Origin: an uncultured Gammaproteobacteria bacterium | Lineage (GTDB): Bacteria > Pseudomonadota > Gammaproteobacteria > Pseudomonadales > Pseudohongiellaceae | DNA length: 64,000 nucleotides | Assembly: GCA_913061515.1 (NCBI GenBank) | Contig: CAJXSF010000010.1 | Coordinates: forward strand, 5,808 to 69,807 | Direction: 5' to 3' | Shown here: positions 8,242-40,251 of the stretch, in pieces | Position numbering within the stretch: position 1 is the first letter of the stretch | Layout of the letters: each line of letters begins with the position of its first letter | Translations under genes and position numbers: made by a program | Notes under the pieces: generated by a model | The model's database searches: none | Told to the model about the DNA's origin: nothing | Seen by the model: only the letters and a program-made list of their open reading frames with translations

Positions 8242-8245
8242 CACT

Positions 8246-13065: not shown

Positions 13066-13088
13066 TCAATAACAGATAAGGAGACAAC

Positions 13089-14341: not shown

Positions 14342-14347
14342 CGGCTA

Positions 14348-15046: not shown

Positions 15047-15047
15047 T

Positions 15048-17266: not shown

Positions 17267-17285
17267 TGCTTTAGATCTCTAACAT

Positions 17286-18089
17286 TTACAACACGTCCCC
17301 GAAGGCGTGTCGAATACGCATAAACACCCAGCCACCGATGCAGTAAGTTAAAAGTGACACAGGAACAATAATTTGAAAGCTCGTCATATCGAAAGTGCCA
17401 AGTAGCACTAGATTTCGATACATCTCAACAAAGCTATGCATGGGGTTAAGCAGCAATAAAGGCTGATACTCAACGGGAATCAAAGAGATTGGGTAAACGA
17501 TAGGCGTTAGGAAAAACCAAGCGGTAAGCGTGAGTGACACGATCTGCTGAATATCGCGCAGAAAGACACAGAAGGCTGAAAGGATTGCCACTAACCCCAT
17601 CGTGAACAAGAATTGGAAAAAGAAGACAATAGGCAAGAGCAGCCAGAGGCTATTGAAATAACCTTGCGTGCTCAAATAGACCAAGAACAGCGACAAGGCA
17701 ATGCCGTGGATCATATAAGGCACGATTGTGCCTACGCCTGGGATGATCTGCACCGGGAACATCACCTTGGTAATCAATGGGGCTTTCTCTAACAATAAGC
17801 CGCTGGCCCGCCCCATGGCATCGCCAAAGGCAAACCAAGGCAGGTAGCCCATCATCATGAAGACAACGAATGGGGTGTTGCCATACTCCACTGGCATTGG
17901 TGCGCGAAACACCACGCTGAATACAAAGGAGTAGATAAGAATATTGACAATAGGCGTGATGAACAACCACACCATGCCCCCGAAGGAGCCTGCAAACTGC
18001 CCCGTAAAATCTTGGCGCACAAAATTATGAAAGAGCCGGTAATGAACAATGGGGGCAAACAGCCACTGACGAAGCAGAGAGAAAAACAT
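17286..18089 (-). CDS. wzm: ABC-2 type polysaccharide exporter permease (Wzm-like)
   Basis: About 267 aa with six predicted TM helices, immediately upstream of wzt. Confidence 0.85.
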   Translation of the reverse strand: MFFSLLRQWLFAPIVHYRLFHNFVRQDFTGQFAGSFGGMVWLFITPIVNILIYSFVFSVVFRAPMPVEYGNTPFVVFMMMGYLPWFAFGDAMGRASGLLLEKAPLITKVMFPVQIIPGVGTIVPYMIHGIALSLFLVYLSTQGYFNSLWLLLPIVFFFQFLFTMGLVAILSAFCVFLRDIQQIVSLTLTAWFFLTPIVYPISLIPVEYQPLLLLNPMHSFVEMYRNLVLLGTFDMTSFQIIVPVSLLTYCIGGWVFMRIRHAFGDVL

Positions 18090-20867: not shown

Positions 20868-20903
20868 TGTTTATATCCCAAACTAGTAAATTCTGTGTGT
20901 GCG

Positions 20904-22613
20904 CTATGCCTGCGCGGCTTTGTTCTGCGGCATGAGACTGGCAAGCACTTGCTCGCGCGGGCCGAAGCTCTTCGCCGTGCCGTCTTTCATCACCAAAATT
21001 TTGTCGGTGACCATCAACACCATTGTGCGGTGTGTGATTACGATGACTGTGCAACCTTGTTCTTTAACGCGTTGAAGTGCCAGCACCAATTCGCGTTCGC
21101 CTTGGTCGTCGAGATTGGAGTTCGGTTCATCGAGCACTAATAATTTAGGGTTGCCATAAACTGCTCTGGCAAGCCCAATACGCTGTCGTTGTCCGCCTGA
21201 CAAAATGCCACCGCTACCGCCAATGACCGTGTCATAACCGTTAGGTAAACGCAGAATTAGTTCATGTACACCGGCAAGCTGTGCTGCTTGCACCACCTTC
21301 TCAGGGTCTAGCTCACCAAAACGGCTGATGTTTTCTGAGATGGAGCCATCGAAAAGTTCGATATCTTGGGGTAAGTAACCGATGTGCGGGCCAAGCTCGC
21401 GGCGATCCCAAGCGAAAATATCGGCACCGTCCAAGCGGACCTTGCCACCGCCGGTTGGCCAAATCCCTAAAAGGGCGCGAGCAAGGCTCGATTTTCCAGA
21501 GGCGCTAGGGCCGACTATGCCAAGAATATCGCCAGCATCTAATTCAAAGCCAACGCCTGCCACCACGGGTGCTTTTGCGCCTGGTGGTGTGACATATACG
21601 CCTTCAACGCTGATCTGCCCAGTAGGGGCAGGCAATGACATTCTTTCTTCATCTTTAGGAATACGCTCTAATAATTGACCGAGGCGTTCGTATTGAGCGC
21701 GCGCGACAGAGAAGCCCTTCCAGGTGCCTACTAATAGGTCAATTGGGGCTAGAGCGCGGCCAAGAAGTAGCGAGCCGGCAATCACCATGCCTGGGGAGAT
21801 TTCTTGTTCCAAGGCGAGCAAAGCCCCTAAGCCAAGAATCAAAGACTGTGTGATCATACGAAAAGATTTAGAGAAGGTGCCAAGTAGCCCAGCACGACGG
21901 CTAGCGTCAGTTTGCAAGAACAATACTTTGTCGGCACGCTCTTGTTGGCGATGACGGATGCCATCGATCATGCCCATGGCTGCGATCACTTCGGAGTTGC
22001 GCATGCTGCCATTGATCTGGTTATTAACCCAGTTTGCCTCTACGTTGGCTTCTTTGAGTTTTTCGTTAGTGGCTTTTTCAGTGGCAAAGGCAAAAGCAAT
22101 CATCACAATGCCTGAGATGATTCCCACCACTCCAAACCATGGGTGAAACATAAACATCACGGCAATATAGATAGGGAACCAAGGGGCATCGAAAAATGCG
22201 AATAGCCCATTGCCAGTCATAAACTGGCGCAACTGTGATAGGTCGCTATTGGGTTGGGCTCCGCCGCCCATGCCGCCTGAATAAAGGTTTTGCTTAAAGC
22301 TGGCGTCGAATACGCGATTGCGCAGTCCAGTCTCGATTTTATTACTAGCGCTTGTCAGTATCATGGTGCGAACCCATTCGAAACCGCCCATCGCTGCAAG
22401 CAAGAACACCATAATAATTGTCAATGTGCCAAGAGTGGATAAGCTGCCACTAGACATCACTCGATCATATACTTGCAACATGTACAGAACAGGCACAAGC
22501 ATCAAGATATTGATGGCAGCGCTGAATGCCCCCGCATAGATGAAATAATGACGGACGGCCTTGAAAGCCTCGTAGAGCTCTTTGTATCTAACTTTGTTTT
22601 TTGGATCGTTCAT
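20904..22613 (-). CDS. Type I secretion ABC transporter, PrtD/RsaD type (no C39 peptidase domain)
   Basis: Six-TM domain plus an NBD with GPSASGKSSLARAL, LSGGQRQRIGLARA and LLVLDEP. About 569 aa. Confidence 0.92.
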   Translation of the reverse strand: MNDPKNKVRYKELYEAFKAVRHYFIYAGAFSAAINILMLVPVLYMLQVYDRVMSSGSLSTLGTLTIIMVFLLAAMGGFEWVRTMILTSASNKIETGLRNRVFDASFKQNLYSGGMGGGAQPNSDLSQLRQFMTGNGLFAFFDAPWFPIYIAVMFMFHPWFGVVGIISGIVMIAFAFATEKATNEKLKEANVEANWVNNQINGSMRNSEVIAAMGMIDGIRHRQQERADKVLFLQTDASRRAGLLGTFSKSFRMITQSLILGLGALLALEQEISPGMVIAGSLLLGRALAPIDLLVGTWKGFSVARAQYERLGQLLERIPKDEERMSLPAPTGQISVEGVYVTPPGAKAPVVAGVGFELDAGDILGIVGPSASGKSSLARALLGIWPTGGGKVRLDGADIFAWDRRELGPHIGYLPQDIELFDGSISENISRFGELDPEKVVQAAQLAGVHELILRLPNGYDTVIGGSGGILSGGQRQRIGLARAVYGNPKLLVLDEPNSNLDDQGERELVLALQRVKEQGCTVIVITHRTMVLMVTDKILVMKDGTAKSFGPREQVLASLMPQNKAAQA

Positions 22614-22747: not shown

Positions 22748-23554
22748 CTATAGCTCTTGCTTACCTTCTGCTAAGGCTTGCAAGGTGTCGGGGTCAATAA
22801 TGAGCAAGCAACCGGGCCCGTCGCGTTTCACTATTTGCTTGGCCTGTAGTGTTTGAAACACCCGCGTGACGGTTTCGCGGCTCAGGCTTAGCATGATGGC
22901 AATCTCCATATGCGTTGGCGGATTATTGATCATCGATGGCACTTGGCCATTTTTCTCTTTGGCAGTAAGTAACATCCACAATTGGCAGCACACCCGTTGG
23001 CTGATGTTGGGCAGGCCCAAGAGCGAGCGTTGTCGCGTCATTTGGCGCAATCGCGCGGCAAGCCTTTCTCCTAATACCTTAAAGATATTTGGCTGTTTCA
23101 GCATAATTTCGCGCAGGCTTTCCATCGGAATAAACACTGTGACGGCTGCGGTTAAGGCGATGACATACTCGGGCTGCGTGCCGTGATCAAATAAGCCTAA
23201 TTCGCCGCAAAAGTCGCCTGGTTCCACGAAATAAAGGCCCACTTCCCGGCCATCAATGGTAAAATCTACCCCCTGCAAGCGCCCTTCAAATAAAAAGCAC
23301 ACAGCGTCTTCATGAATTCCCGCATTTAATACAATGCCACGGCGGGCAAATTTGCGCAGGCTAGCCAGCGGCGCAAGTTCACTCAATATTTCGTGAGGCA
23401 AGGGCTTTAATATTGGAAAAGTGCTTAGCAGCTCTGGGGTTACCACGATACAGTTTTTGTCCCTGATGGCTGGATTCGGCGACGCTCCGGCATTATAGGA
23501 GGTTGCTGATGAATAGCAAACGCCAGTACTTGCGTGCCGTGTGACTGTAATCAC
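22748..23554 (-). CDS. Crp/Fnr-family transcriptional regulator
   Basis: cNMP-binding-like beta-roll (GDFCGELGLF) and a C-terminal HTH SRETVTRVFQTL that matches the E. coli CRP RETVGR recognition helix. GTG start, so the start is uncertain. Confidence 0.8.
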   Translation of the reverse strand: MITVTRHASTGVCYSSATSYNAGASPNPAIRDKNCIVVTPELLSTFPILKPLPHEILSELAPLASLRKFARRGIVLNAGIHEDAVCFLFEGRLQGVDFTIDGREVGLYFVEPGDFCGELGLFDHGTQPEYVIALTAAVTVFIPMESLREIMLKQPNIFKVLGERLAARLRQMTRQRSLLGLPNISQRVCCQLWMLLTAKEKNGQVPSMINNPPTHMEIAIMLSLSRETVTRVFQTLQAKQIVKRDGPGCLLIIDPDTLQALAEGKQEL

Positions 23555-28502: not shown

Positions 28503-28674
28503 AAACAAAGTTAATTGTTTAAAAATAGCAGCTTACGGCCGCATCTTAATGAAACAAACAGCTTGTAATTGCTAGGCAGTCCTAGTAGTATCTTCGCCCA
28601 TGTCCGCTTGTGGTCAGGAATCACTATGCCATTTAAGTGGGTTCAACTAGGAATATTCAGCAAGTTTTCGTCTA

Positions 28675-28690
28675 TGTGACTGTAGTCACA
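28675..28690. promoter_or_regulatory. Perfect CRP-type palindrome TGTGA-CTGTAG-TCACA upstream of the S-layer-like gene
   Basis: Read directly. A TATCCT hexamer at 28712-28717 would place the box near -41.5 (class II geometry). The ATG is at 28806. Confidence 0.6.
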
Positions 28691-28805
28691 GGGAAGTGAA
28701 AGCGAACTGCGTATCCTTGGCACAACCGAATGGGGTCATCCGCTGTTGTAGGCGTGTCACAATCGGATAAAACAAATTGGATTAAAATTTTAAGGAGTTC
28801 TAACA

Positions 28806-31562
28806 ATGGCGATTACCGTCGAAGCTCGTACCAATCTCGTAGGCCTCGTAGTAGGTATGTTTGGTGCTGCACCAGGTGCAAGTGTTTTGTCTGACCTAGT
28901 AGCATCTTACGAAGCAGGCGCAACAATCAAGCAAATCGCAGCTAACCTTGCGAACACTACTGAATTCACAGGCATTTTCCCAACTTTCCTTACTAACGAA
29001 GAGTTTGCAACTAAAGTTGTTAATCAACTAGTTGGTAGCGAAGTTGTTCAAGCTGAAAAAGACGCAGCCGTTACTACTCTAGTAGGCATGCTAAACGGTG
29101 GCGCAAGCCGCACAGATGTATTCGTTGACGCAATCGCTGCTGTTGACGCTCTACAATCTACTAACGCTGCATGGGCAAATGCCGGTGCTGCGTTCGATAA
29201 CAAAGTCGAAGTCGCAGTTTACTACTCTGTTGAAAAACAACTAAGTGGTGCATCTTTGCAAGCGCTTCAAAACGTAGTGGCTTCAGTTACTAGCAGCGCA
29301 GCTTCAGTAACTAGTGCGAAAGCATCTGTAGACAACGTACAGAATCCAGGTTCTACGTTCTCATTCACTACCGGTGTGGATGCACTCGTCGGCGCTTCTG
29401 CTGATGACGTGTTCAATGCTACAGTAACTAGTACCTCTGCAACTTTGGGTGCGCTTGACACTGTTGATGGCGGTGCAGGTAACGACACTATGAATGTAGT
29501 GGAGACTGGAGTAGCCGCCAACGCGGATTACGTCCTTCCAACTGGACTTTCAATAAAGAATGTAGAAACTTTGAAAGTTACAACTAATGGCGCCCTAGGC
29601 ACACTGGCTGGTACTAACTTTGACGTGTCTGCTATTGCAGGTTTGACTTCATTTGTAGGCGCTGCTGCTGGTGCAGGTACTGCGACTGGTAGTGAAATAA
29701 AGGCAGCTGGAACTACTGATGTTACTTTAACTGTTGCAGGCGCAAATGCTGCAACTGTTAATGGTGGTAAGGATGTACATGTAAATGCAGGCACTGGTGG
29801 TGTAACTACTATCGCTGGTTTGGCTTCTGGTACTTCTTCTGCTTCTGTTAAAGGTGGTGGTAATGTTGTTGTATCTGGTAATAGCATGAAGAGCCTAACA
29901 TTGGATGCTATCGCTGGTACAACTGCGGGCTTTACTTCTACTGGTGGTGCAACTGTTACTGTTAAAAACCAGACTTCTGCATTGGCCACAACTGTGACTA
30001 ATGCAACATCAACTGCGCTAACTGTTAACGTTGATGGCGTTGGTTATACTGCTGTTGGTGGTACTACACCAGTTGCCGTTTCTGTTGCTGCTGGCTCAGC
30101 TGCTGCAACTATCAACCTAAATGCTACTGGCAATAAGAGCAGTGTTACTGTTTCAGGCGCTGCCGCAAAGACATTGAACATTACTGGTAGTGCTGCACTA
30201 ACATTGGCCAGTCCTCTTGCAACTGCGACTAAAATTGATGGCTCTGCCGCAACAGGCGCTTTGACTCTTGGCGATTTGAACGCTGGTACTCTTACAGTTA
30301 CTACTGGCTCGGGCGATGATTCTCTAGCTGTTCAAGCAACAACGGCAGCTACTGTAACTACTGGAGCTGGTAACGACACAGTGACATTAAAATCTGCTCT
30401 TGCTGCAGCTTCAAAAATCACTCTAGGTGCAGGCAACGACACAGTGTTGTTCGGCACTGGTGGTAGTGTTGCAACTTCAACTTCAACAGTTATTGATGGC
30501 GGAGACGGTGACGACTCTGTATCTGCTAACCTAATCAATGCTGGAAATGCGACTCAGTTTGTAAACTTTGAGAAAGTGAACTTAGATAGCGCTACTGGTC
30601 TTGATCTTGCTTTGTTGACTGGTAACACTATTTCTGGTTTGACTATCAGTGGCGCTGCTGCTGCTAACGCAACTTATCAGAATGTAAAGCTTGCCAACTC
30701 ATTGACTGTTGATTATGTGGGTTTAAACACAAACACAAATACATTGACTTTCTCTGACGCAAGTGGAACTTCTGACACTTACAGCATCACTTTCGCAGGT
30801 GTTGGTGCTTCTACTCCAACTAGTGCAACAGTGGGCGCCGGCACAGTTGCTGCTCAAGGTATTGAGAACTTCAGTATCGTTTCTGGTGGGACAAAAGCCT
30901 GGAACTCCTTGACTCTTGGTACAAACACTGTAGCGAAAACAGTTACCATTACGGGTGACGCTAAACTGGATTTAGCATTTACTGCGTTTGGTACTGCGGG
31001 TGCATCTGGTGTTACTTCAATTGATGGCTCTGCAGCAACTGGTGCCTTGTCTATCAATGCAGCTAACATTGGCAAAGCAACTGCTGGACTCACAATCAAA
31101 GGTGGTTCTGCAGCAGACACGCTAACTGCTAGTACAGTATCTGTTAGTCTAACTGGTGGTGCTGGTGCAGACTCGTTCAATGTTGCAGCTGCTCTTGTTG
31201 GCACTGCTACTCCTGCAGGTTTGGTAACTACTACAATTACTGATGCAACAGCTGGTGATAAGATTATCTTCGCTGACTTAGGTACAGAAGTATTTACTTC
31301 TACTAAGATTAACGTAAGTACAGCAACTGCATTGATTGGCGGTACAACAAATGCCCTAGACTTAGCGGCTGCAGCTGCAGACTCTAGTACAAACGGCCAA
31401 ATCACTTGGTTCCAGTATGCTGGTGACACGTATGTTGTTCAGGAGCTGGGCGCAAATGCAGCTGTAATTGGCACTGACGATGTCGTTGTTAAGTTAACTG
31501 GTCTAATTGATCTGTCTACTGCAACTTACGACGCAACGACTAACGCACTAACTTTGGTGTAA
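28806..31562 (+). CDS. Large Cys-free Ala/Thr/Gly/Val/Ser-rich surface-layer / RTX-like protein, probable T1SS substrate
   Basis: Strong SD AAGGAG and no signal peptide. Sparse GGxGxD-like motifs (GGAGNDTMN, GAGNDTVTL, GAGNDTVLF, GGDGDDSVS, GGAGADSFN), repeated IDGSAATGAL, and an acidic hydrophobic C-terminus (...VVVKLTGLIDLSTATYDATTNALTLV). A T1SS lies nearby. Confidence 0.7.
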   Translation: MAITVEARTNLVGLVVGMFGAAPGASVLSDLVASYEAGATIKQIAANLANTTEFTGIFPTFLTNEEFATKVVNQLVGSEVVQAEKDAAVTTLVGMLNGGASRTDVFVDAIAAVDALQSTNAAWANAGAAFDNKVEVAVYYSVEKQLSGASLQALQNVVASVTSSAASVTSAKASVDNVQNPGSTFSFTTGVDALVGASADDVFNATVTSTSATLGALDTVDGGAGNDTMNVVETGVAANADYVLPTGLSIKNVETLKVTTNGALGTLAGTNFDVSAIAGLTSFVGAAAGAGTATGSEIKAAGTTDVTLTVAGANAATVNGGKDVHVNAGTGGVTTIAGLASGTSSASVKGGGNVVVSGNSMKSLTLDAIAGTTAGFTSTGGATVTVKNQTSALATTVTNATSTALTVNVDGVGYTAVGGTTPVAVSVAAGSAAATINLNATGNKSSVTVSGAAAKTLNITGSAALTLASPLATATKIDGSAATGALTLGDLNAGTLTVTTGSGDDSLAVQATTAATVTTGAGNDTVTLKSALAAASKITLGAGNDTVLFGTGGSVATSTSTVIDGGDGDDSVSANLINAGNATQFVNFEKVNLDSATGLDLALLTGNTISGLTISGAAAANATYQNVKLANSLTVDYVGLNTNTNTLTFSDASGTSDTYSITFAGVGASTPTSATVGAGTVAAQGIENFSIVSGGTKAWNSLTLGTNTVAKTVTITGDAKLDLAFTAFGTAGASGVTSIDGSAATGALSINAANIGKATAGLTIKGGSAADTLTASTVSVSLTGGAGADSFNVAAALVGTATPAGLVTTTITDATAGDKIIFADLGTEVFTSTKINVSTATALIGGTTNALDLAAAAADSSTNGQITWFQYAGDTYVVQELGANAAVIGTDDVVVKLTGLIDLSTATYDATTNALTLV

Positions 31563-31578
31563 TAGTCCTTTACTGAAA

Positions 31579-31600
31579 GCAACTACGTACACGTAGTTGC
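31579..31600 (+). terminator. Perfect inverted repeat GCAACTACGT-AC-ACGTAGTTGC after the S-layer-like gene
   Basis: Read directly. There is no T-tract, so it may be an RNA-stabilising 3' hairpin. Confidence 0.35.
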
Positions 31601-31607
31601 TTGATGT

Positions 31608-31646
31608 AAAAAAACCCCCTATTGCGAAAGTGGTAGGGGGTTTTTT
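31608..31646. terminator. Bidirectional rho-independent terminator (A7 - CCCCCTA...TAGGGGG - T6)
   Basis: 7-bp GC-rich stem flanked by an A-run and a T-run, between convergent genes (S-layer-like + strand, sapC-like - strand). Confidence 0.8.
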
Positions 31647-31685
31647 ATTTTAGAGTTTGCGATTTACTCGTGCTGCATAAAAACA

Positions 31686-32456
31686 CTAAACGCCATCAAA
31701 GTTTATATTACCTTCGTCACCAGAAAGCCCGAACTGTAAGTCTTTGACGCTTGGGGGGTTGCTTTGAGACTTCGCAGCGCTATCGATTAAAACTTCTAAA
31801 TTTTGCATCGAAAGTAACTGGCAATAGATCAAAGGTAAGGCTCCTGCATCGCGCAAGCGGGTTAATTGATTGGAGTCCAGAGAATTAAACTTAACTTCAT
31901 TAATTCGAAAAATGCCCTCTACCAATACATCTTGTTCGCCTTTTTTTACAGTTATAGGCCAACTCTCGTACAAATCTAATTCGTTGAGTAAATTACAAAT
32001 TGAATGCGTAACAACGTGATTCTCAAAAACATGAATTAAAAAATTTAGAATATCGTTAATCGATGGGCTTGGTTCACCTTCGCTATCGAAAAAAGGATGC
32101 CCTTCAGTTGTACTTAAAGAAGCACTTGAGCTATCTACGCACAAAGCTTTTTTATTTTCTTCTAAATGATTCAATGCAAATGGGTAGCCACGATAAGCAG
32201 CCGGAATATACCCTGCTAACCAACTCCCTGTACTATCGACAAAATAATTATTACCCGCTTCTAAACTTTGTAGAGCAAACAATCCAAAACCATTGTTCGA
32301 TCGACTAAATACTATAGGAATATGCAGTGCAGCTTTAGGGACCTCTAGAGTCACCAAAGGACACATAGCTTCATTAGCTGCAAATGCAAAATTATTAGTT
32401 GGATTCCATCGTAAATTCTTATGGAGCTCTTTTGAAACTACTTCATATGTTGACAT
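31686..32456 (-). CDS. SapC-family protein
   Basis: About 256 aa. The N-terminal pattern (VSKELHKNLRWNP..NFAFAANEAMCPLVTLEVPKAALHIPIVF) matches what I recall of the SapC family. The gene is visibly AT-richer than its neighbours. Confidence 0.65.
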   Translation of the reverse strand: MSTYEVVSKELHKNLRWNPTNNFAFAANEAMCPLVTLEVPKAALHIPIVFSRSNNGFGLFALQSLEAGNNYFVDSTGSWLAGYIPAAYRGYPFALNHLEENKKALCVDSSSASLSTTEGHPFFDSEGEPSPSINDILNFLIHVFENHVVTHSICNLLNELDLYESWPITVKKGEQDVLVEGIFRINEVKFNSLDSNQLTRLRDAGALPLIYCQLLSMQNLEVLIDSAAKSQSNPPSVKDLQFGLSGDEGNINFDGV

Positions 32457-32484
32457 AACAATTGCCTGCTAGAGTATTTGAACA

Positions 32485-33009
32485 TTAATGATACCGATAT
32501 TCTGATTCGGGGGGGGGCTTGTTGAAATCACTGTCTACTGGGTATTGTTGCCATACAGTCGAATGCCATTCTGAAATTTTCCACAAAGACCTTAATATTA
32601 AGAGCCATTGAACAAGCTCAGGCGCAGTTAGGTTTAAAAGTGTTTGCTCAGTATGCGATTTTCGAAAACGTAGAGATAAATAACTGACGTTTGCTGTGAT
32701 ATCGACTTCTTCCACTAGCCAGTTCTGAGTATTTGTAATACTTGCTGGTTTTACTTCTGACTCGATGCATTCATCTAGCTTTAAATTTTGGTTCGTAAAA
32801 TTGCCTTTACATAAGCTATTGTGAGTTTCTAGCCAGGTAAAAAGACTTGGTAATAAGCGTAGTAATAATCTTTGAGTAAGGGAAAATGTTACGTAGTCAT
32901 TCTGACTAGTTTCACCTATTATTTCTATTCGGTCTTCTATGTCGTTATATTTAGTCGTAAGCTTGATTAGTTTAGTCATGGTATATATTTCTTCAACATT
33001 CGACTCCAT
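32485..33009 (-). CDS. Hypothetical protein (no recognisable motif), likely co-transcribed with the sapC-like gene
   Basis: 174-aa ORF, AT-rich, 28 nt upstream of the sapC-like start. An alternative start is at 32979 (MTKLIKL). Confidence 0.45.
   Translation of the reverse strand: MESNVEEIYTMTKLIKLTTKYNDIEDRIEIIGETSQNDYVTFSLTQRLLLRLLPSLFTWLETHNSLCKGNFTNQNLKLDECIESEVKPASITNTQNWLVEEVDITANVSYLSLRFRKSHTEQTLLNLTAPELVQWLLILRSLWKISEWHSTVWQQYPVDSDFNKPPPESEYRYH
32509..32517. repeat. G9/C9 homopolymer inside the 3' end of the hypothetical ORF (encodes PPP)
   Basis: Counted directly: ttcGGGGGGGGGctt. Confidence 0.9.
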
Positions 33010-33127
33010 CGTGCAAACTAATAGAGTTTAGAGTCACGATAGGTATGACGCAATGTCTAACCCTATCTTAAGATAAGCAAATAAAACTAAAAAACTATAT
33101 CTGACGACTAAGAAGCGCATTGCAACT

Positions 33128-33859
33128 ATGGACAAAACAAGCACAGGCTATAATACTGAGGTTCTGCACATGATTTTTTTTAAAATAGTAGTAATCCCAA
33201 TTTTAGTCGTAGGCATAGCCAGCGAAAGAGCATTAAGCGCAGTAGAGCTCAATCTCTTCGAGCGTGTAGAGTCAACAAATACCATTAACTCTATTAGTAG
33301 CGACCAAGCCCGCGAACAACGCGCCCTCCCCAACGCCCCAACGTTCACTCTGCTTGGCACCAGCCGCATCGGCGGCAAGCTAAAAGCCAGCCTAGTCGAT
33401 AATAATGGTGAGGTTATTCGGGTGGAGATGGGCGACGAAGCTTCTACCCCAATTCCCGGCCATGTCGGCTATAGATTGGTGCGGGTAGGTTCGCGTGAAG
33501 TGGCAATCAGCTTGCCTGGGAATACGCCGTGCATTGGCTTTGAAGATAAAGGTGTCTCTTGTGGCTCCGATGGCCTAGCGGAATTATCCCTCACTACGGC
33601 GGCTCCTATCATAGTCGCATCTACTGCAGAGCAAACACAGCAGAATAACGACGAAATAGCCGCAGCCAATGCCGAAGAAGAGCCCGACAACCCCTTTGCG
33701 GCGGCGCTTCGGGCAGCGGCACAGAACGAAGCAGCCACTCGCGGGCGCGGTCGGCCGATCAGCGAGCGCTTCGAGGTGCAAAGAATAGCGCCAGAGGATG
33801 TTCCGCCTGGCAAGCGCGTCGTTCGCACGCCGTTTGGTGATAGACTCGTTGATATATAA
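33128..33859 (+). CDS. Bitopic membrane protein with PilP/GspC-HR-like beta domain and Ala/Glu-rich tail
   Basis: TM IFFKIVVIPILVVGIA (a start at 33170 is plausible). Segment FTLLGTSRIGGKLKASLVDNNGEVIRVEMGDEAS..IPGHVGYRLVRVGSREVAISLPG resembles the GspC-HR/PilP fold pattern (by eye). Confidence 0.4.
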   Translation: MDKTSTGYNTEVLHMIFFKIVVIPILVVGIASERALSAVELNLFERVESTNTINSISSDQAREQRALPNAPTFTLLGTSRIGGKLKASLVDNNGEVIRVEMGDEASTPIPGHVGYRLVRVGSREVAISLPGNTPCIGFEDKGVSCGSDGLAELSLTTAAPIIVASTAEQTQQNNDEIAAANAEEEPDNPFAAALRAAAQNEAATRGRGRPISERFEVQRIAPEDVPPGKRVVRTPFGDRLVDI

Positions 33860-33870
33860 TCTGCGGCACT

Positions 33871-34722
33871 GTGACTACTATTAAAACCTCTACTAGCCCC
33901 TCTCTTTCGATCTCAATCGTTATCTATCGCTCAGCGCTAGAGGTGTTGAGTGAAACCCTGTCTACCCTTCTAAGTTCTGTTAGCCATTCGCTAGAGGATG
34001 GCGATCTTAGTTCGGCGCAGATCACCCTCGTGCACAATGCAGTGCCTTGCCCGCAATTGAGTGCATTGATACAAGATTTTACCCAGCGTGCGGCAAAGAA
34101 AGAGGTTCAAGTGCGCCTATTAGAAGGCCATGGCAATATAGGGTATGGGCGCGGCCATAATCTGGCGGTGCTAGCGGCCAGTAGTGATTACCACCTTATA
34201 TTGAACCCAGACGTTAAGCTTGTCGAAGACTCGCTTAGCCAAGGGCTGCGCTTTATGGCGGACCATTCAGAGATCGTGGCACTTAGCCCTGCGGTGGTGG
34301 GCGAAGACGGCAGTAAGCAGTATGTGTGCAAACGCTACCCTTCGGTGCTGGACTTTGTGATTCGCGGGTTCGCCCCTAATTTTGTAAAGGGCTGGTTTAG
34401 CAAGCGCCTTGCCCACTACGAAATGCAGGACTTGCCCGAGCAAGAACCTAGTACCGACATCCCCATCATCAGTGGATGTTTTATGTTGTTTCGAACCCAG
34501 GCGCTGCAGGGCGTAGAGGGCTTCGATGATCGCTACTTCCTCTATTTTGAAGATTTTGACCTATCACTACGTGTGCACTGTAAAGGTGCATTGGCCTATT
34601 TGCCGTCCATGAAGATCGTCCACCTTGGCGGCAATAGCGCTAAAAAAGGTCTGCGGCACATTGGCATGTTCGCGCGCTCTGGCCTGCGCTTCTATAACAC
34701 TCACGGTTGGCGCCTGTTATGA
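33871..34722 (+). CDS. Family 2 glycosyltransferase (rhamnosyltransferase-like)
   Basis: ISIVIYRS..., GHGNIGYGRGHN and GCFMLFRTQAL...FLYFEDFDLSLR are typical GT2. GTG start. Confidence 0.8.
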   Translation: MTTIKTSTSPSLSISIVIYRSALEVLSETLSTLLSSVSHSLEDGDLSSAQITLVHNAVPCPQLSALIQDFTQRAAKKEVQVRLLEGHGNIGYGRGHNLAVLAASSDYHLILNPDVKLVEDSLSQGLRFMADHSEIVALSPAVVGEDGSKQYVCKRYPSVLDFVIRGFAPNFVKGWFSKRLAHYEMQDLPEQEPSTDIPIISGCFMLFRTQALQGVEGFDDRYFLYFEDFDLSLRVHCKGALAYLPSMKIVHLGGNSAKKGLRHIGMFARSGLRFYNTHGWRLL

Positions 34723-35693
34723 GCCTAGAAACACACACAGCACAAAAAACTGTCTTGGTGACTGGCGGCACGGGTTTTGTTGGGCGTGCCCTTTGGCAGC
34801 GCTTGTTAGAAAAGCAATACCGAGTGCATATACTGGCGCGCTCAGAACCCAGTTCTAGCCCCGATGTGGCGAGCAGCGTGTTCTTTCAAGGGGATATCAA
34901 TGACAAAGTGGCGTTGAAAGCCGCTTGTGCCGGTGTCGATACGATCTATCATCTGGCCGCCTATGCCCATGTGAATCAACACGATGCCCAAGCCATGCGG
35001 ACTGTGAATGTCGAGGGAACACGCAGTTTGCTTGCCGCTGCCAAAAGCGCAGGTGTTAAGCGCATCGTCTATTTCAGTAGCATCTTGGCCGATAGTGAGT
35101 TGTACCCCCAACTTACCGACTACGGGCAGGCTAAAAAAGATGCAGAGAACCTGTTGTTAGCGGCAGCAAGTGCGGGTGAGATCGAGGTGTGTTGTCTGCG
35201 CCCTGCCAATGTCTATGGTCTAGGCATGAAGGGCAATCTATTAAGTGTGTTGAAGCTTATTCATCGTGGGGTATTGCCACCCTTGCCCTTGCCGAGCGCA
35301 AGTTTGAGCTTAGTGGGCAGCCGAGACCTTTGCGAGGCGGCGTTGCTAGCGGCTGACTCAGCCAATGCGAACCAACAAATCTACGCGGTGACCGACGGTA
35401 AAACCTATACCATGAAGGGCATTGAGCTGACGGCGCGTCGCACCCTAGGGCGGGCGCCTTTCAAGTGGCAGTTGCCGAGAGAGGCATTTTATTTGGCTTT
35501 TGCCACCCTAGAACTGCTAGGCAAAGTGCTGCGCTTGCCCAATGCCCCTGGCTTGCGTTCCTATCGGGTCTTAACCGTTGATACGGTGGTCTCAAGCGAG
35601 AAAATACAGCAGGAACTGGGCTATAATCCGGCGAGCTCATTGAGCTATGAACTTCCCGAGATTTTGCAACAGATTGCCGCGCGCCAGCAGTAA
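34719..35693 (+). CDS. NAD-dependent sugar epimerase/dehydratase (SDR)
   Basis: VLVTGGTGFVGRAL Rossmann motif and YGQAK catalytic motif. ATGA overlap with the GT2 stop (34719-34722). Confidence 0.8.
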   Translation: MSLETHTAQKTVLVTGGTGFVGRALWQRLLEKQYRVHILARSEPSSSPDVASSVFFQGDINDKVALKAACAGVDTIYHLAAYAHVNQHDAQAMRTVNVEGTRSLLAAAKSAGVKRIVYFSSILADSELYPQLTDYGQAKKDAENLLLAAASAGEIEVCCLRPANVYGLGMKGNLLSVLKLIHRGVLPPLPLPSASLSLVGSRDLCEAALLAADSANANQQIYAVTDGKTYTMKGIELTARRTLGRAPFKWQLPREAFYLAFATLELLGKVLRLPNAPGLRSYRVLTVDTVVSSEKIQQELGYNPASSLSYELPEILQQIAARQQ

Positions 35694-35734
35694 TGGCTCG
35701 TTAAGCAGTAAATTGATACTTAAAAAGGCCCAGC

Positions 35735-36295
35735 GTGAAAATCACCCCTACTACTATTGCCGATGTCGTCATTCTCGAACCCACTTTGCATGGGGATCAC
35801 CGAGGCTTTTTTCTTGAAACTTGGCGTGAGTCGACCTTTGACTCTATCGCCCCTGGCCTGAAATTTGTGCAAGACAATCACAGCAAATCAGGCAAAGGTA
35901 TTCTGCGCGGCCTGCATTACCAATTAAAGCAGCCACAAGGGAAGCTTGTGCGTGTTATTGCTGGCGAGATCTATGACGTGGCTGTGGATATGCGTCGCAA
36001 CTCGGCAAGCTTTGGGCAGTGGGTTGGCGTGACTTTGTCAGCGGATAATCATCGGCAACTATGGGTGCCACCGGGTTTTGCCCATGGTTTTGTCGTAACC
36101 AGCGAAAGCGCCGAAATGGTGTACAAATGCACCGACTACTATGCGCCAGAGGATGAGCATTCCTTGCTTTGGAATGACCCAGCATTAGCAATCGACTGGC
36201 CATTGCAAGATTTAGGGATGGCAGAACCGGTTCTCTCTGCGAAAGATCGCGAAGGCAAATTATTTGCCGATGCCGTTGTGTACGAAAACAGTTAA
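35735..36295 (+). CDS. rfbC: dTDP-4-dehydrorhamnose 3,5-epimerase
   Basis: Cupin-fold RmlC motifs (HGDHRGFFLETW, RGLHYQ, FAHGF). GTG start. Confidence 0.92.
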   Translation: MKITPTTIADVVILEPTLHGDHRGFFLETWRESTFDSIAPGLKFVQDNHSKSGKGILRGLHYQLKQPQGKLVRVIAGEIYDVAVDMRRNSASFGQWVGVTLSADNHRQLWVPPGFAHGFVVTSESAEMVYKCTDYYAPEDEHSLLWNDPALAIDWPLQDLGMAEPVLSAKDREGKLFADAVVYENS

Positions 36296-36322
36296 ATAAG
36301 CGAAAGCACGGAGCAACAATAC

Positions 36323-37201
36323 ATGGGAAAACGCATTGTCATTACTGGGGCAAATGGTCAGTTAGGCCAAACTCTCATGCGTTCGACGTTGTTTGAGCTT
36401 CATACTTTGTTGCCGCTTGGGCGTGAAGACATGGACATTGCGATCCAATCCGAGGTTTCAGCCAAGCTCGATGCCTTAAAGCCCGATGTCATTATCAATG
36501 CGGCGGCCTACACGGCTGTGGATGCGGCAGAGACGAACCCCGAAGATGCTTACAGCATTAACGAACAAGGGGTAAAGCATCTGGCACGTTGGTGTAAAGG
36601 CAAGCCTTGTCATCTCATTCATGTGTCTACTGACTTTGTGTTTGCTGGCGACAAAAATCGCCCCTACCGTGTCGACGAGCAAACCAACCCTTTGAGCATT
36701 TACGGTCAAAGCAAATTGGCTGGCGAGAAAATGTTGACAGAGATTTTACCGAGTAAATTCACCATCGTGCGAACGGCCTGGCTGTACTCTCCTTACAATA
36801 ATAATTTCTTGAAAACGATGCTGCGCTTGATGCGTGAGCGCGACGAACTCAATGTGGTTGACGATCAAATTGGAACGCCTACTTCAACGGCAGGGCTCGC
36901 TGCCTGTTTGCATGGGCTTGTGATGGCTGAAAAGCCAGGCAAACTGTACCATTGGACCGACGCCGGCGTGGCAAGCTGGTATGACTTTGCAGTGGCGATT
37001 CAAGAGGAGGCCCTAGCAAAGTCCTTTTTAGACCATGCCATTCCTATTCATCCAATCTCCACTGAAAAATATAAAACGGCGGCAGTGCGCCCGCCCTACA
37101 GCGTGCTCGACAAATCCAAAGCCTTATTAGATTTGCAGTGCCCACAGATCCATTGGCGCGAAGCCCTACGAGATGTCCTGCGCACATTGACAGAAAAATA
37201 G
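36323..37201 (+). CDS. rfbD: dTDP-4-dehydrorhamnose reductase
   Basis: ITGANGQLG, AAYTAVDAAE, STDFVFAG and YGQSKLAGE. Confidence 0.92.
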   Translation: MGKRIVITGANGQLGQTLMRSTLFELHTLLPLGREDMDIAIQSEVSAKLDALKPDVIINAAAYTAVDAAETNPEDAYSINEQGVKHLARWCKGKPCHLIHVSTDFVFAGDKNRPYRVDEQTNPLSIYGQSKLAGEKMLTEILPSKFTIVRTAWLYSPYNNNFLKTMLRLMRERDELNVVDDQIGTPTSTAGLAACLHGLVMAEKPGKLYHWTDAGVASWYDFAVAIQEEALAKSFLDHAIPIHPISTEKYKTAAVRPPYSVLDKSKALLDLQCPQIHWREALRDVLRTLTEK

Positions 37202-37282
37202 AGGCCAAAAAAGATTGCCATGTAGGAGCTTGCCTGCAAGCGAAACTGACTATAACGATAATTCCAAAGCGAGACACACAAA

Positions 37283-38365
37283 ATGCGAAAAGTCTTAATC
37301 ACCGGCGCAGCTGGATTCATCGGAGCAAACTTCACTCATTACTGGTTGAAGAAATACCCAGCAGATAAAGTCGTCGCATTAGATGTGCTGACTTATGCGG
37401 GCAATACTTGGAACTTGCACGATGTGTGGAACGAGCCAGCCTTGACCTTCGTGAAAGGCGATATCTGTGATCAAGCACTTATCGAGCAATTGCTGACAGA
37501 GCACGGTATAGACACCATTGTGCACTTTGCCGCTGAGAGCCATGTGGATCGCTCAATAACCGGGCCAGATGCCTTTATTAACACCAATATTATCGGCACA
37601 CACAGTTTGCTAAAAGCCGCTAAGGCATTTTGGTTAGATAAAGAGGAGCCGCTGGCCCATCACTTTCATCACGTCTCAACAGATGAAGTGTATGGGACGC
37701 TAGAGCCTGACGATCCGGCTTTCTCTGAGCTAACCCCCTATGCGCCCAACTCTCCTTATGCAGCAAGCAAGGCGGCATCGGACCATTTGGTGCGCTCATA
37801 TCATCACACCTATGGTTTGCGCGTCACCACGAGTAATTGCTCAAACAACTACGGGCCTTATCACTTTCCAGAGAAACTGATTCCTTTGTGCTTGTTGAAT
37901 ATTCTGCATGGTAAGCCCTTGCCGATTTATGGCAATGGTTTGCAGATTCGCGACTGGCTCTATGTGGATGACCACGCGCGCGGCATTGATCTTGTGATCA
38001 ATAAGGGTGAGCCGGGCGAGACCTATAATGTGGGCGGTAATAATGAGTGGACGAATATCGATGTGGTGAAATTGCTTTGCCAGTTAGTCGATGGTTTTTT
38101 TGCTACCGATGAAGAGCTACGCATTCGCTTTCCACAATGCCCTGCTGCAAAAGGCAGTGCTAGTACAAGCCTCATTACCTATGTAACCGACCGCCCTGGC
38201 CATGACACGCGTTATGCCATTAATGCTGAAAAGATCATGTCGCAACTTGGTTACGAGCCAAAAGTAGGTTTTGCCGACGGCCTGACGCGCACTGTGCAAT
38301 GGTATTTAGATAACCAGCAGTGGTGGGAAAAAATACAAGACGGCACCTACAAAAACGGCTTCTAA
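37283..38365 (+). CDS. rfbB: dTDP-glucose 4,6-dehydratase
   Basis: ITGAAGFIGANF, HFAAESHVDRS, YAASKAASDHL and DRPGHDTRYAI. Confidence 0.95.
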   Translation: MRKVLITGAAGFIGANFTHYWLKKYPADKVVALDVLTYAGNTWNLHDVWNEPALTFVKGDICDQALIEQLLTEHGIDTIVHFAAESHVDRSITGPDAFINTNIIGTHSLLKAAKAFWLDKEEPLAHHFHHVSTDEVYGTLEPDDPAFSELTPYAPNSPYAASKAASDHLVRSYHHTYGLRVTTSNCSNNYGPYHFPEKLIPLCLLNILHGKPLPIYGNGLQIRDWLYVDDHARGIDLVINKGEPGETYNVGGNNEWTNIDVVKLLCQLVDGFFATDEELRIRFPQCPAAKGSASTSLITYVTDRPGHDTRYAINAEKIMSQLGYEPKVGFADGLTRTVQWYLDNQQWWEKIQDGTYKNGF

Positions 38366-40075: not shown

Positions 40076-40251
40076 AGAAAGTGAGTTCAAACTAGTTGCT
40101 AGCATACCGCGGTTTATCGGCCGAAGCTGATGAATCTTGAATGTCGCGGGTTTTGCAGCATAGCGGGTTTTGCTAGTTGGCTCACGAGAATTTTGAGAAT
40201 CTGTGACATACTTGGCGCAGTGAAAACACTAGATTAATAAGGAGTGACCCT

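What the first reader, a model, noticed from the sequence alone, without database searches (positions are those of the whole stretch)
28806..31562. 918-aa Cys-free, Ala/Thr/Gly/Val-rich protein with sparse RTX-like motifs: probable T1SS-exported S-layer protein
**Seen:**
- There is no signal peptide, no Cys and a single His.
- The N-terminal ~170 aa are non-repetitive (..FGAAPGASVLSDLVASYEAGATIKQIAANLANTTEF..), reminiscent of DUF4214/RsaA-type anchoring regions.
- The centre contains degenerate GGxGxD motifs (29469-29495 and a cluster at about 30300-30530). An IDGSAATGAL motif occurs twice, 786 nt apart (30234 and 31020).
- The C-terminus is typical of uncleaved T1SS signals.
- Expression signals are strong: AAGGAG SD and double 3' hairpins.

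**Established:** RsaA (Caulobacter) and SapA (Campylobacter fetus) are S-layer proteins exported by T1SS.

**Inference:** this is an S-layer or surface-array protein in a lineage where such layers are poorly documented.
Basis: partly seen in the sequence, partly recalled or inferred. Interest (0 to 1): 0.6.

Follow-up and report, generated by a model that had tools for sequence, protein, structure and literature searches.

The report
RsaA-type surface-layer protein, swappable cassette
This gene very probably encodes the protein that forms a crystalline surface coat (S-layer) on an uncultured Pseudohongiellaceae bacterium. It is a relative of Caulobacter RsaA with a different anchoring domain, so it is an ordinary kind of gene, but it lies in a cassette that differs sharply between sister species.

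Summary
The ORF 28806-31562 encodes 918 aa with no Cys and one His. It has sparse GGxGxD motifs, a twice-occurring IDGSAATGAL module, an AAGGAG SD and a double 3' hairpin.

The S-layer reading is strongly supported by computation:
- Residues ~181-918 are homologous to the lattice domain of Caulobacter RsaA (phmmer E 1e-22; Foldseek E 1e-21; AF2 pLDDT 89.5), including the C-terminal secretion region.
- The genome's only PrtD-type T1SS, a sapC gene, Wzm/Wzt and rhamnose genes surround the gene.
- Codon usage ranks 14th of 2050 ORFs, level with EF-Tu and GroEL.
- A sister species carries, at the same locus, an allele whose C-terminal domain matches RsaA at E 1e-157.

One correction: the helical N-terminal domain (1-180) is not RsaA-like. 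It is a diverged DUF4214 / phycobilisome-linker-like domain.

New here: promoter, leader and N-terminal domain are conserved across the genus. The lattice domain plus sapC/orf174 (about 29020-33305) form a replaceable cassette with at least 5 types in 7 congeners.

Other notes of this scan on this same window already called the gene RsaA-type; it was not found on other DNA.

Verdict: new member of a known kind, moderate interest.

The parts
28675..28690 (+). CRP-type box TGTGA-N6-TCACA upstream of the S-layer gene
   Evidence: Present once, at the same distance (about 96-145 nt) upstream of the start codon, in every genus locus and in the Pseudohongiella, Zoogloea and Comamonas loci. First noted in scan note e1-4020969.
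28712..28717 (+). -10-like hexamer TATCCT (putative)
   Evidence: Position confirmed. Five of six genus sequences read TATCCT and one reads TATGCT. Its promoter role is inferred; the consensus scanner did not call it.
28722..28805 (+). Conserved 5' leader with SD AAGGAG (28792-28797) and two further GGA motifs (28765, 28779)
   Evidence: Nearly identical in six genus genomes although the coding region diverges to 36-62% aa identity. No stable fold (z 0.42). No Rfam match.
28806..31562 (+). S-layer protein gene, 918 aa
   Evidence: Single copy in the genome.
28806..29345 (+). N-terminal helical domain (aa 1-180), putative cell-surface (O-antigen) anchor, diverged DUF4214-like
   Evidence: AF2 gives 10 helices at pLDDT 91.7. 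The DUF4214 hits of full-length homologues map to aa ~47-112. The best fold hits are phycobilisome-linker domains, and they are weak. Identity among genus alleles is 55-85%.
29346..31559 (+). Beta-rich RsaA-like lattice domain (aa 181-918)
   Evidence: phmmer against RsaA E 1.2e-22, aligned down to the last residues. Foldseek hits 6z7p/6p5t/5n8p at E 1e-21 to 2e-18, TM 0.48-0.63. The domain starts at a motif that aligns with the first residues of the RsaA C-terminal-domain crystal construct.
29469..29495 (+). GGxGxD Ca-binding-type motif (aa 222-230)
   Evidence: This is the best Pfam HemolysinCabind stretch, aa 218-229.
30306..30527 (+). Cluster of four GxGxD motifs (aa 501, 520, 541, 565)
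   Evidence: This is the most conserved part of the family, with 63-66% mean identity over 451-600.
31155..31181 (+). Third GGxGxD motif (aa 784-792)
   Evidence: It aligns with a GGxGxD motif of RsaA.
31314..31559 (+). C-terminal ~82 aa, presumed uncleaved T1SS secretion signal region
   Evidence: It aligns with the RsaA C-terminus (49 bits, E 2e-12 for aa 756-916), including the conserved W-F-Q-aromatic ... T-Y-V-V block and the K-L-T-G-L block. W868, F869, Y876, L897, G899, D902 and L903 are invariant in 34 homologues. The 82-aa extent is taken from published RsaA work and recalled from my own knowledge.
31571..31652 (+). Double hairpin terminator (the second is flanked by A- and T-runs, so it is probably bidirectional)
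31686..32456 (-). SapC-family gene
   Evidence: PF07277, E 6e-63. Found next to SLP genes in genus loci and in Pseudohongiella, Comamonas and Rhodocyclaceae loci. GC3 is 0.30 but CAI is average.
32485..33009 (-). orf174, unknown partner of sapC
   Evidence: No Pfam or NCBIfam hit. Homologues lie in SLP loci of the genus and of Massilia and Rhodocyclaceae.
29020..33305 (.). Variable cassette: SLP from about aa 72, the terminator, sapC, orf174 and the 5' part of orf243
   Evidence: blastn against the sister genome G001 gives 82% identity up to 29020, then no match until 33305. Against G008 the match runs to 29495. GC is 0.43-0.47 against about 0.52 in the flanks.
18127..22613 (-). Dedicated T1SS: ABC (20904-22613), MFP (19500-20867), TolC-type OMP (18127-19503)
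   Evidence: TIGR01842 739 bits (cut-off 510). TIGR01843 367 bits (cut-off 209). TIGR01844 205 bits (cut-off 225, so just below). It is the only PrtD-type ABC over the cut-off in the genome.
16070..18089 (-). Wzm/Wzt O-polysaccharide ABC exporter
   Evidence: 79-97% identical across the genus.
22748..23554 (-). Crp-family regulator, likely activator acting at the CRP box
   Evidence: Synteny with the SLP gene is kept in Gamma- and Betaproteobacteria. The link to the box is inferred (scan note e1-4020965).
33871..38365 (+). GT2, epimerase, rmlC, rmlD and rmlB: glycan (rhamnose) synthesis genes
   Evidence: Syntenic in the genus.

Best explanation
The gene encodes the S-layer protein of a Pseudohongiellaceae bacterium. 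It is a two-module protein built on the RsaA plan.

Proposed mechanism:
1. The protein is made without a Sec signal.
2. The PrtD-type ABC / HlyD / TolC system encoded 6 kb upstream exports it in one step through its uncleaved C-terminal signal.
3. Outside the cell, the beta-rich C-terminal domain (aa ~181-918) folds around Ca2+ at its GGxGxD-type sites and self-assembles into a two-dimensional lattice.
4. The helical, DUF4214-like N-terminal domain (aa 1-180) ties the lattice to the cell surface. The most likely ligand is the O-polysaccharide made and exported by the Wzm/Wzt, GT2 and rml genes of the same locus.
5. Transcription starts from a conserved CRP-box promoter under the neighbouring Crp-family regulator, and expression is very high.

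Between species, homologous recombination in the conserved promoter / leader / 5' coding arm and in the downstream arm swaps the lattice domain together with sapC/orf174. This gives different surface types on a common anchor.

Shown: the homology, the fold, the gene context, the codon bias and the cassette structure.

Inferred: export by this particular T1SS, Ca2+ dependence, O-antigen anchoring, lattice formation, Crp control and the selective reason for the diversity (phage or predator pressure).
For: (1) RsaA homology.
- phmmer E 1.2e-22 over aa 397-916, plus a weaker match from aa 182.
- Foldseek top six hits are all RsaA, E 1e-21 to 2e-18, TM 0.48-0.63. The next hits are serralysin beta-rolls at E about 0.2.
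- The model is confident: pLDDT 89.5.

(2) C-terminal secretion region. It aligns with that of RsaA and holds the family's invariant residues.

(3) Context.
- T1SS trio.
- SapC family gene.
- Wzm/Wzt plus rmlBCD/GT2.
- The whole 24-kb arrangement is syntenic in seven genus genomes, and partly so in Pseudohongiella, Zoogloea, Comamonas, Massilia and Rhodocyclaceae.

(4) One transporter, one substrate. There is one PrtD-type ABC over the cut-off and no other HemolysinCabind ORF in a 98%-complete genome.

(5) Expression proxies.
- CAI 0.797 with ribosomal-operon weights, rank 14 of 2050 ORFs. EF-Tu scores 0.815, EF-G 0.793 and GroEL 0.793.
- SapC has the same GC3 but scores only 0.656, so low GC3 alone does not explain the value.
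- Strong SD and a strong terminator.

(6) Classical S-layer composition: no Cys in any of 12 alleles, acidic, rich in Ala/Thr/Gly/Val.

(7) Same-locus alleles in sister species.
- G001 (flanks 84-98% identical) has a C-terminal domain collinear with RsaA 248-1025 at E 7e-158.
- G008 and G013 alleles match RsaA at 3e-25 and 7e-19.

(8) Module behaviour typical of S-layer genes.
- N-terminal domain 55-85% identical among genus alleles.
- C-terminal domains fall into at least 5 types at baseline identity (32-41%).
- The window's C-terminal domain is closer to that of Zoogloea (50%) than to that of G001 (39%).
- DNA similarity breaks at 29020 and resumes at 33305.

(9) Precedents in the literature.
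- Slr4, an RsaA-like beta-helix with under 20% identity to RsaA, proved to be a true S-layer in a marine gammaproteobacterium (PMC7821379).
- The RTX+DUF4214 protein Psh of P. putida is T1SS-exported, acts at the cell surface and blocks phages (bioRxiv 10.64898/2026.09.02.748959).
Against:
- The N-terminal domain has no detectable sequence or fold similarity to the RsaA O-antigen-binding domain. Its DUF4214 assignment rests on homologues only, since Pfam finds nothing in it even at E up to 10. The phycobilisome-linker fold match is weak (E 0.7, TM 0.34-0.42).
- O-antigen binding by DUF4214 domains has only been modelled, not measured, in the Psh preprint.
- The N-terminal domain type does not track Wzm/Wzt. 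These are 97% identical between the window and G001, while the N-terminal domains are 59% identical.
- The TolC-type protein scores just below the TIGR01844 cut-off.
- RTX motifs are few, and Pfam support is borderline.
- High CAI can be partly compositional in a protein that is 56% Ala/Thr/Gly/Val.
Confidence: 0.8

Rival explanations
1. It is a Psh-like surface shield. The T1SS-exported, DUF4214-bearing, Ca-binding protein coats or aggregates on the O-antigen and masks phage receptors without forming a regular two-dimensional crystal.
For: The parts list matches P. putida Psh: a DUF4214-type helical domain, RTX-like repeats, an adjacent T1SS and an O-antigen locus. The strong between-species diversification of the exposed domain is what phage pressure would produce.
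Against: The exposed domain is homologous along its whole length to a domain whose known role is lattice formation, and a sister allele is nearly an RsaA orthologue. Psh itself was never examined by microscopy (the term does not occur in the paper), so it may also be an S-layer. The two readings therefore overlap rather than exclude each other.
Confidence: 0.1
2. It is an RTX-family adhesin or biofilm-matrix protein. It would be exported by the T1SS and either retained at the surface or released, mediating attachment rather than forming a cell-covering array.
For: It is a beta-helical, Ca-binding, Cys-free T1SS substrate. Relatives carry the same N-terminal domain on much longer proteins of 1228-1756 aa. 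Slr4 is both an S-layer and a matrix component.
Against: - It lacks the adhesin hallmarks: no long tandem Ig/BIg repeats, no N-terminal retention module, and a LapG/LapD-type system was not looked for. Pfam finds only a borderline RTX hit.
- At 918 aa, its size is typical of S-layer proteins.
- Its codon bias equals that of translation factors.
- The locus is organised like the rsaA and sap loci.
Confidence: 0.05
3. It is a freely secreted Ca-binding exoprotein of another function (for example a bacteriocin-like or nutrient-scavenging protein) that merely shares the RsaA beta-helix scaffold.
For: A Halomonas DUF4214 protein of similar size was interpreted as an anchored exo-enzyme (PMC11970703). 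Serralysin-type beta-rolls are the next-best fold hits.
Against: - No catalytic domain is detected by Pfam, NCBIfam or fold search.
- The enzyme reading of the Halomonas protein rests only on RTX-region threading.
- Conserved linkage to O-antigen genes and a conserved anchor-like N-terminal domain argue for cell association.
Confidence: 0.03

Closest known systems
RsaA S-layer protein of Caulobacter crescentus/vibrioides with its RsaD/E/F T1SS (PDB 5N8P, 5N97, 6P5T, 6Z7P)
   Same: - Two-module plan: a helical N-terminal domain and a beta-rich C-terminal domain, with the junction at the aligned G-S/Q-T-hydrophobic...T-T-G-x-D motif.
- The C-terminal domain is homologous in sequence and fold (26-28% identity in structural alignment).
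- Shared C-terminal secretion region, sparse Ca-type motifs and no Cys.
- A PrtD-type T1SS and O-antigen genes at the locus.
   Different: - The N-terminal domain is unrelated by sequence and by Foldseek.
- The protein is about 100 aa shorter.
- A SapC-family gene and orf174 accompany it.
- It has a CRP-box promoter with an adjacent Crp / CHASE2-cyclase module.
- Lattice symmetry is unknown.
Campylobacter fetus SapA/SapB with the sapCDEF operon
   Same: - A T1SS-exported, LPS-anchored S-layer protein with a sapC gene beside the transporter/substrate locus (PF07277 hit, E 6e-63).
- A conserved 5' region and N-terminal anchor with a variable C-terminal part (the C. fetus facts are from my own knowledge; the pattern here is).
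   Different: There is a single copy per genome, so there is no within-genome cassette inversion. The variation lies between species. Sequence homology to SapA was not tested. Here sapC is convergent to the S-layer gene and 9 kb away from the T1SS genes.
Psh (PP_1794) of Pseudomonas putida KT2440, an RTX+DUF4214 'phage shielding' protein (bioRxiv 10.64898/2026.09.02.748959)
   Same: - A DUF4214-type helical domain plus Ca-binding repeats.
- Export by an adjacent AprD/PrtD-type T1SS.
- Location in an O-antigen locus of a gammaproteobacterium.
- A proposed O-antigen-bound protective coat.
   Different: Direct homology to Psh was not tested because no sequence was at hand. Psh is not reported to resemble the RsaA lattice domain. 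Its O-antigen binding is only modelled, and no lattice was sought.
Slr4 S-layer family of marine Gammaproteobacteria (Pseudoalteromonas tunicata; PMC7821379)
   Same: A predicted RsaA-like L-shaped beta-helix in a gammaproteobacterium. Slr4 was shown experimentally to be the most abundant protein and to form a lattice, so distant RsaA-likeness can predict S-layer function.
   Different: - Slr4 shares under 20% identity with RsaA, and its neighbour is a T2SS cluster.
- The present protein is closer to RsaA, has a T1SS-type C-terminus and lies beside a T1SS.
- A T2SS cluster also lies next to this locus (6354-16073).
- Homology to Slr4 was not tested.

Membership tests
RsaA-type S-layer proteins | Beta-rich C-terminal lattice domain homologous to RsaA residues ~250-1026 | tested here: met
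   phmmer E 1.2e-22. Foldseek E 1e-21, TM 0.48-0.63, with RsaA entries as the top six hits.
RsaA-type S-layer proteins | N-terminal O-antigen-binding domain homologous to RsaA residues 1-249 | tested here: not met
   No sequence alignment to RsaA before its residue ~249. A fold search with the N-terminal domain alone did not place RsaA (6z7p is in the library) among the top 50 of 72 hits.
RsaA-type S-layer proteins | Uncleaved C-terminal secretion signal and a dedicated ABC/MFP/OMP type I system nearby | tested here: met
   C-terminal 160 aa align with the RsaA C-terminus, E 2e-12. TIGR01842 and TIGR01843 score over their cut-offs and TIGR01844 scores just under. It is the only such ABC in the genome. 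Actual export is not testable here.
RsaA-type S-layer proteins | Ca2+-binding GGxGxD-type sites | tested here: met
   Three strict and three loose motifs. The Pfam HemolysinCabind score of 24.5 bits is just over the cut-off of 23. Metal binding itself is not testable.
RsaA-type S-layer proteins | Anchoring to smooth LPS / O-antigen | tested here: inconclusive
   Wzm/Wzt, GT2 and rmlBCD are syntenic with the gene. However, the N-terminal domain type does not co-vary with Wzm/Wzt, and binding cannot be tested in silico here.
RsaA-type S-layer proteins | Very abundant protein that self-assembles into a 2D lattice covering the cell | not testable with these tools
Campylobacter fetus Sap system | sapC-family gene linked to the S-layer gene and its T1SS | tested here: met
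   PF07277, E 6e-63, at 31686-32456. The linkage recurs in other loci.
Campylobacter fetus Sap system | Several silent sapA-type cassettes per genome, rearranged behind one promoter | tested here: not met
   One copy in a 98%-complete genome.
DUF4214 (PF13946) domain proteins | Pfam PF13946 match over the gathering score | tested here: inconclusive
   The window protein gives no match even at E up to 10. Six full-length homologues match at E 3e-10 to 3e-15, in residues that align with aa ~47-112. There is also a weak phycobilisome-linker fold match.
Psh-type RTX+DUF4214 phage-shield proteins | Homology to P. putida PP_1794 and T1SS-dependent phage protection | not tested
   Only the architecture and context are comparable. 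No Psh sequence was available to compare.

The most novel reading that the evidence does not exclude
The S-layer gene of this genus works as a plug-in system.
- A fixed, nearly invariant CRP-box promoter, 5' leader and lineage-specific DUF4214-type anchor serve as a landing pad.
- Whole lattice domains, together with sapC/orf174 or alternative accessory genes, are exchanged there by recombination.
- Donors reach across proteobacterial classes. One congener carries a Caulobacter-type RsaA domain (E 1e-157), and the window's own domain is nearer to that of the betaproteobacterium Zoogloea than to the domains of its sister species.

This would make lattice domains mobile 'serotype' modules shared among Alpha-, Beta- and Gammaproteobacteria. 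Their expression would be set by an envelope-sensing cyclic-nucleotide/Crp circuit.
Probability: 0.5. Interest if true: 0.6.

Novelty: new member of a known kind. Interest (0 to 1): 0.42.

Why it matters
It assigns a likely S-layer, with its exporter, probable anchor glycan genes and regulator, to Pseudohongiellaceae. I found no published S-layer record for this group.

It also adds a case to the small set of Gram-negative, T1SS-exported S-layers beyond Caulobacter and Campylobacter.

The wider point is the modularity. A DUF4214-type domain stands where RsaA has its O-antigen-binding domain. Lattice domains, including a near-RsaA one, are swapped between species on a conserved promoter/anchor arm. 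If confirmed, this gives three things:
- A natural series of interchangeable lattice modules for studying S-layer assembly and display engineering.
- A testable function for the widespread DUF4214 domain.
- A marker of phage- or predator-driven surface diversification in environmental bacteria.

Tried and rejected
- NCBIfam gave no family for the protein.
- Pfam on the isolated N-terminal, middle and C-terminal pieces added nothing.
- The search for related loci with the single protein found no confirmed relative. The search with alignment A1 worked.
- The listing of cluster members returned no names. The genome search does not give kinship for genomes reached through named loci. Taxonomy therefore had to come from EF-G hits.
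- I tested whether the N-terminal domain resembles the RsaA anchor. This was rejected.
- I tested whether the conserved 5' leader is a structured RNA or a known family. It has no stable fold and no Rfam match.
- I considered a sigma-54 reading of the TGGCAC in the leader and rejected it by eye, because the -12 GC is missing.
- I considered that the low GC3 (0.29) reflects only foreign origin. This is not sufficient: sapC has the same GC3 but an average CAI. Foreign origin of the cassette is still likely.
- The consensus scanner found no sigma-70 promoter or terminator at the expected places. The terminator was confirmed by folding instead.
- Literature searches for 'Pseudohongiella' + 'S-layer' and for 'RsaA-like' + 'S-layer' returned no papers.


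Full report
**Observation**

The ORF at 28806-31562 (+) is real and encodes 918 aa.
- It has no Cys and one His. Ala+Thr+Gly+Val make up 56% of residues. There are 65 acidic and 30 basic residues.
- Strict GGxGxD motifs lie at aa 222, 565 and 784. Looser GxGxD motifs lie at aa 501, 520 and 541.
- IDGSAATGAL occurs at nt 30234 and 31020. The two copies head an old duplicated module: aa ~475-600 against ~737-860, 33% identity, E 7e-8. Both copies are conserved in the family consensus.
- AAGGAG sits 8 nt before the ATG.
- Two hairpins and a T-run follow the stop codon: MFE -42.6 kcal/mol, z -7.25.
- Pfam sees only a borderline RTX match, 24.5 bits against a cut-off of 23. NCBIfam sees nothing.

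**What the protein is**

[quoted passage not shown] The E-value is 1.2e-22 and the alignment runs to the last residues. A weaker match begins at aa 182, at the motif that opens the RsaA C-terminal-domain crystal construct.

An AlphaFold model built on 34 homologues is confident (pLDDT 89.5). It shows ten helices (aa 5-176) followed by an all-beta region (aa 184-918).

Foldseek returns RsaA entries as its six best hits, at E 1e-21 to 2e-18 and TM 0.48-0.63. Serralysin beta-rolls come next at E about 0.2.

The N-terminal domain is different:
- It has no sequence match to RsaA residues 1-249.
- Modelled alone (pLDDT 91.7), it does not retrieve RsaA. It retrieves only weak phycobilisome-linker-domain hits: probability 0.82, TM 0.34-0.42, E 0.7.
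- Pfam finds nothing in it.
- Six full-length homologues have clear DUF4214 matches (E 3e-10 to 3e-15), and these map onto aa ~47-112.

So it is a diverged DUF4214-type domain standing where RsaA has its O-antigen anchor.

**Context**

Upstream on the minus strand:
- A PrtD-type ABC exporter (TIGR01842, 739 bits, cut-off 510).
- A HlyD adaptor (TIGR01843, 367 bits, cut-off 209).
- A TolC-type channel (TIGR01844, 205 bits, just under the 225 cut-off).
- Then Wzm and Wzt.

Downstream:
- A SapC-family gene (E 6e-63) and an unknown 174-aa ORF, convergent with the S-layer gene.
- A GT2, an epimerase, and rmlC, rmlD and rmlB.

Between the T1SS and the gene sit a Crp-family regulator, a FecR-domain protein, a CHASE2 cyclase and a TPR outer-membrane protein.

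The genome is 98% complete. It holds one copy of the gene, only one PrtD-type ABC over the cut-off and no other RTX-repeat ORF. The pairing of this transporter with this substrate is therefore the simplest reading.

**Expression proxies**

I derived codon weights from the ribosomal-protein/EF operon of the same genome. With these the gene has CAI 0.797, rank 14 of 2050 ORFs of at least 200 aa. EF-Tu scores 0.815, EF-G 0.793 and GroEL 0.793, while its neighbours score 0.58-0.69.

Its GC3 of 0.29 lies in the lowest 0.4% of ORFs. However, sapC has the same GC3 and a CAI of only 0.656, so low GC3 alone does not give the high value.

**Relatives and lineage**

The protein database holds 861 homologues. 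Named ones come from Pseudohongiella, Tepidimonas, Stutzerimonas/Pseudomonas, Zoogloea, Janthinobacterium, Cupriavidus and others. They are labelled 'S-layer protein', 'DUF4214 domain-containing protein' or hypothetical.

EF-G of the genome is closest to Pseudohongiellaceae (91%) and Pseudohongiella (86-87%).

In the GTDB genus of the window, 20 of 24 sampled genomes have a match. None of 16 genomes from other families of the order does. No paper in the library links Pseudohongiella with an S-layer.

**The locus across the genus**

The gene order Wzt-Wzm-OMP-MFP-ABC-Crp-FecR-cyclase-OMP-SLP-(SapC-orf174)-orf243-GT2-epimerase-RmlCDB is conserved in all seven genus genomes examined. Parts of it recur in Pseudohongiella, Zoogloea, Comamonas, Massilia and Rhodocyclaceae.

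Divergence of the S-layer gene is decoupled from its flanks:
- G001 has flanking proteins 84-98% identical but an S-layer protein only 36% identical.
- G008 has flanks at 73-93% and an S-layer protein at 37%.
- G021 has more distant flanks (66-88%) but an S-layer protein at 59%.

Split by domain:
- The N-terminal 180 aa are 55-85% identical among all genus alleles.
- The C-terminal domains fall into at least five types that match each other only at the compositional baseline of 32-41%.
- The window's C-terminal domain is 50% identical to that of the betaproteobacterium Zoogloea but 39% to that of G001.

At the DNA level, similarity to G001 runs from upstream through the promoter and leader to 29020 (about codon 72). 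It then stops and resumes at 33305. Similarity to G008 runs to 29495.

The CRP box, the -10-like hexamer and the whole leader down to the ATG are almost invariant in the genus.

The G001 allele is collinear with RsaA residues 248-1025 at E 7e-158. The other alleles match RsaA as follows:
- G008: 3e-25.
- G013: 7e-19.
- G024: barely, at 0.0016, with better hits to canonical RTX blocks.

In G001, sapC/orf174 are replaced by a 508-aa methyltransferase-type gene.

Taken together, this is a replaceable cassette between conserved arms.

**Mechanism proposed**

Confidence is 0.8 for the core claim of 'S-layer protein exported by the adjacent T1SS'.
1. Translation without a Sec signal.
2. One-step export through the ABC/MFP/TolC system, using the C-terminal signal.
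3. Ca2+-assisted folding and lattice assembly of the RsaA-like domain.
4. Attachment through the DUF4214-type domain, most likely to the Wzm/Wzt-exported, rhamnose-containing polysaccharide.
5. Very high expression from a Crp-dependent promoter.

The homology, fold, context, codon bias and cassette structure are shown here. Export route, metal dependence, ligand, lattice and regulation are inferred from RsaA (review PMC12175726), from the C. fetus sap system (my own knowledge) and from other notes of this scan.

**Rivals**
- A Psh-like, possibly non-crystalline O-antigen coat (0.1). P. putida Psh has the same parts and blocks phages. Its O-antigen binding is only modelled and no microscopy was done. 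This reading overlaps with the S-layer reading.
- An RTX adhesin or matrix protein (0.05).
- Another secreted Ca-binding protein (0.03).

None of these explains the full-length RsaA lattice-domain homology and the codon bias as well.

**Comparison and novelty**

The protein works like RsaA and belongs to the RsaA lattice-domain family. It fails one defining feature of RsaA itself, the N-terminal anchor.

It shares with C. fetus the sapC linkage and the pattern of a conserved 5' arm with a variable remainder. It differs in having one copy per genome.

Homologues are already labelled S-layer proteins in databases, and other notes of this scan on the same window had already called the gene RsaA-type. 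I therefore class it as a new member of a known kind.

The more novel element is the cassette behaviour with cross-class lattice domains. It is documented here for seven genomes and deserves a proper phylogenetic test.

Two papers give indirect support that proteins of this architecture are surface-located, costly and T1SS-dependent:
- A Halomonas DUF4214 protein of 1038 aa was hit by independent mutations in 7 of 8 laboratory-evolved populations (PMC11970703).
- Psh (see above).

Slr4 shows that even weaker RsaA-likeness predicted a true S-layer (PMC7821379).

Noticed in passing
window 28722-28805: The 5' leader of the S-layer gene is almost identical in six genus genomes, although the coding sequence diverges strongly. 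It has no stable predicted fold (z 0.42) and no Rfam match. It carries three GGA motifs (28765, 28779 and, in the SD, 28794). This might be a CsrA/RsmA-type binding pattern, but that is speculation. The reason for the conservation is unexplained.
   Followed up: partly
L043:13397-16336 (genome G001, same locus): A sister species whose flanking genes are 84-98% identical carries an allele with a C-terminal domain collinear with Caulobacter RsaA 248-1025 (530 bits, E 7e-158). This is far closer to RsaA than the window's allele, and it implies exchange of lattice domains between Alpha- and Gammaproteobacteria.
   Followed up: partly
L043:16784-18310 (-): In G001, sapC and orf174 are absent. A 508-aa protein with a methyltransferase domain plus PF10119 (methyltransferase regulatory domain) takes their place. 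The accessory genes therefore travel with the lattice-domain type.
   Followed up: no
window 32485-33009 (-): orf174 has no family assignment. Its homologues lie in S-layer/T1SS loci of the genus and of Massilia (L018:17133-17573) and a Rhodocyclaceae MAG (L020:12474-12920). It may be an unrecognised S-layer accessory protein.
   Followed up: no
relatives: G005:C7:33813, G005:C7:44219, G009:C110:10334, G018:C45:806, L017:10001-15271: The same N-terminal domain heads much longer proteins (1228-1756 aa) in some relatives, and some genomes hold two or more carriers. The anchor therefore looks like a reusable module for several surface proteins.
   Followed up: no
window 6354-16073: A type II secretion-like cluster lies directly next to the Wzt end of the S-layer locus, and its last gene is syntenic in the genus. 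The Slr4 S-layer family of marine Gammaproteobacteria also has a conserved T2SS neighbour (scan note e1-4020961). No link to this S-layer protein is evident, since it has a T1SS-type C-terminus.
   Followed up: no
window 38381-40105 (-): A 574-aa protein with two Calx-beta domains is a conserved neighbour at the far end of the locus (58-77% identical in the genus). It may be another Ca-binding surface or secreted protein.
   Followed up: no
control genomes: The PrtD-type model TIGR01842 scored over its cut-off in none of the 14 control genomes, Caulobacter vibrioides included. The window's ABC protein scores 739 bits. By this model the exporter here is more PrtD/AprD-like than the Caulobacter one.
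   Followed up: no
window 28001-34000: GC falls to 0.43-0.47 against about 0.52 on both sides. GC3 is 0.29 in the S-layer gene and 0.30 in sapC, against a genome median of 0.51. This coincides with the variable cassette.
   Followed up: yes
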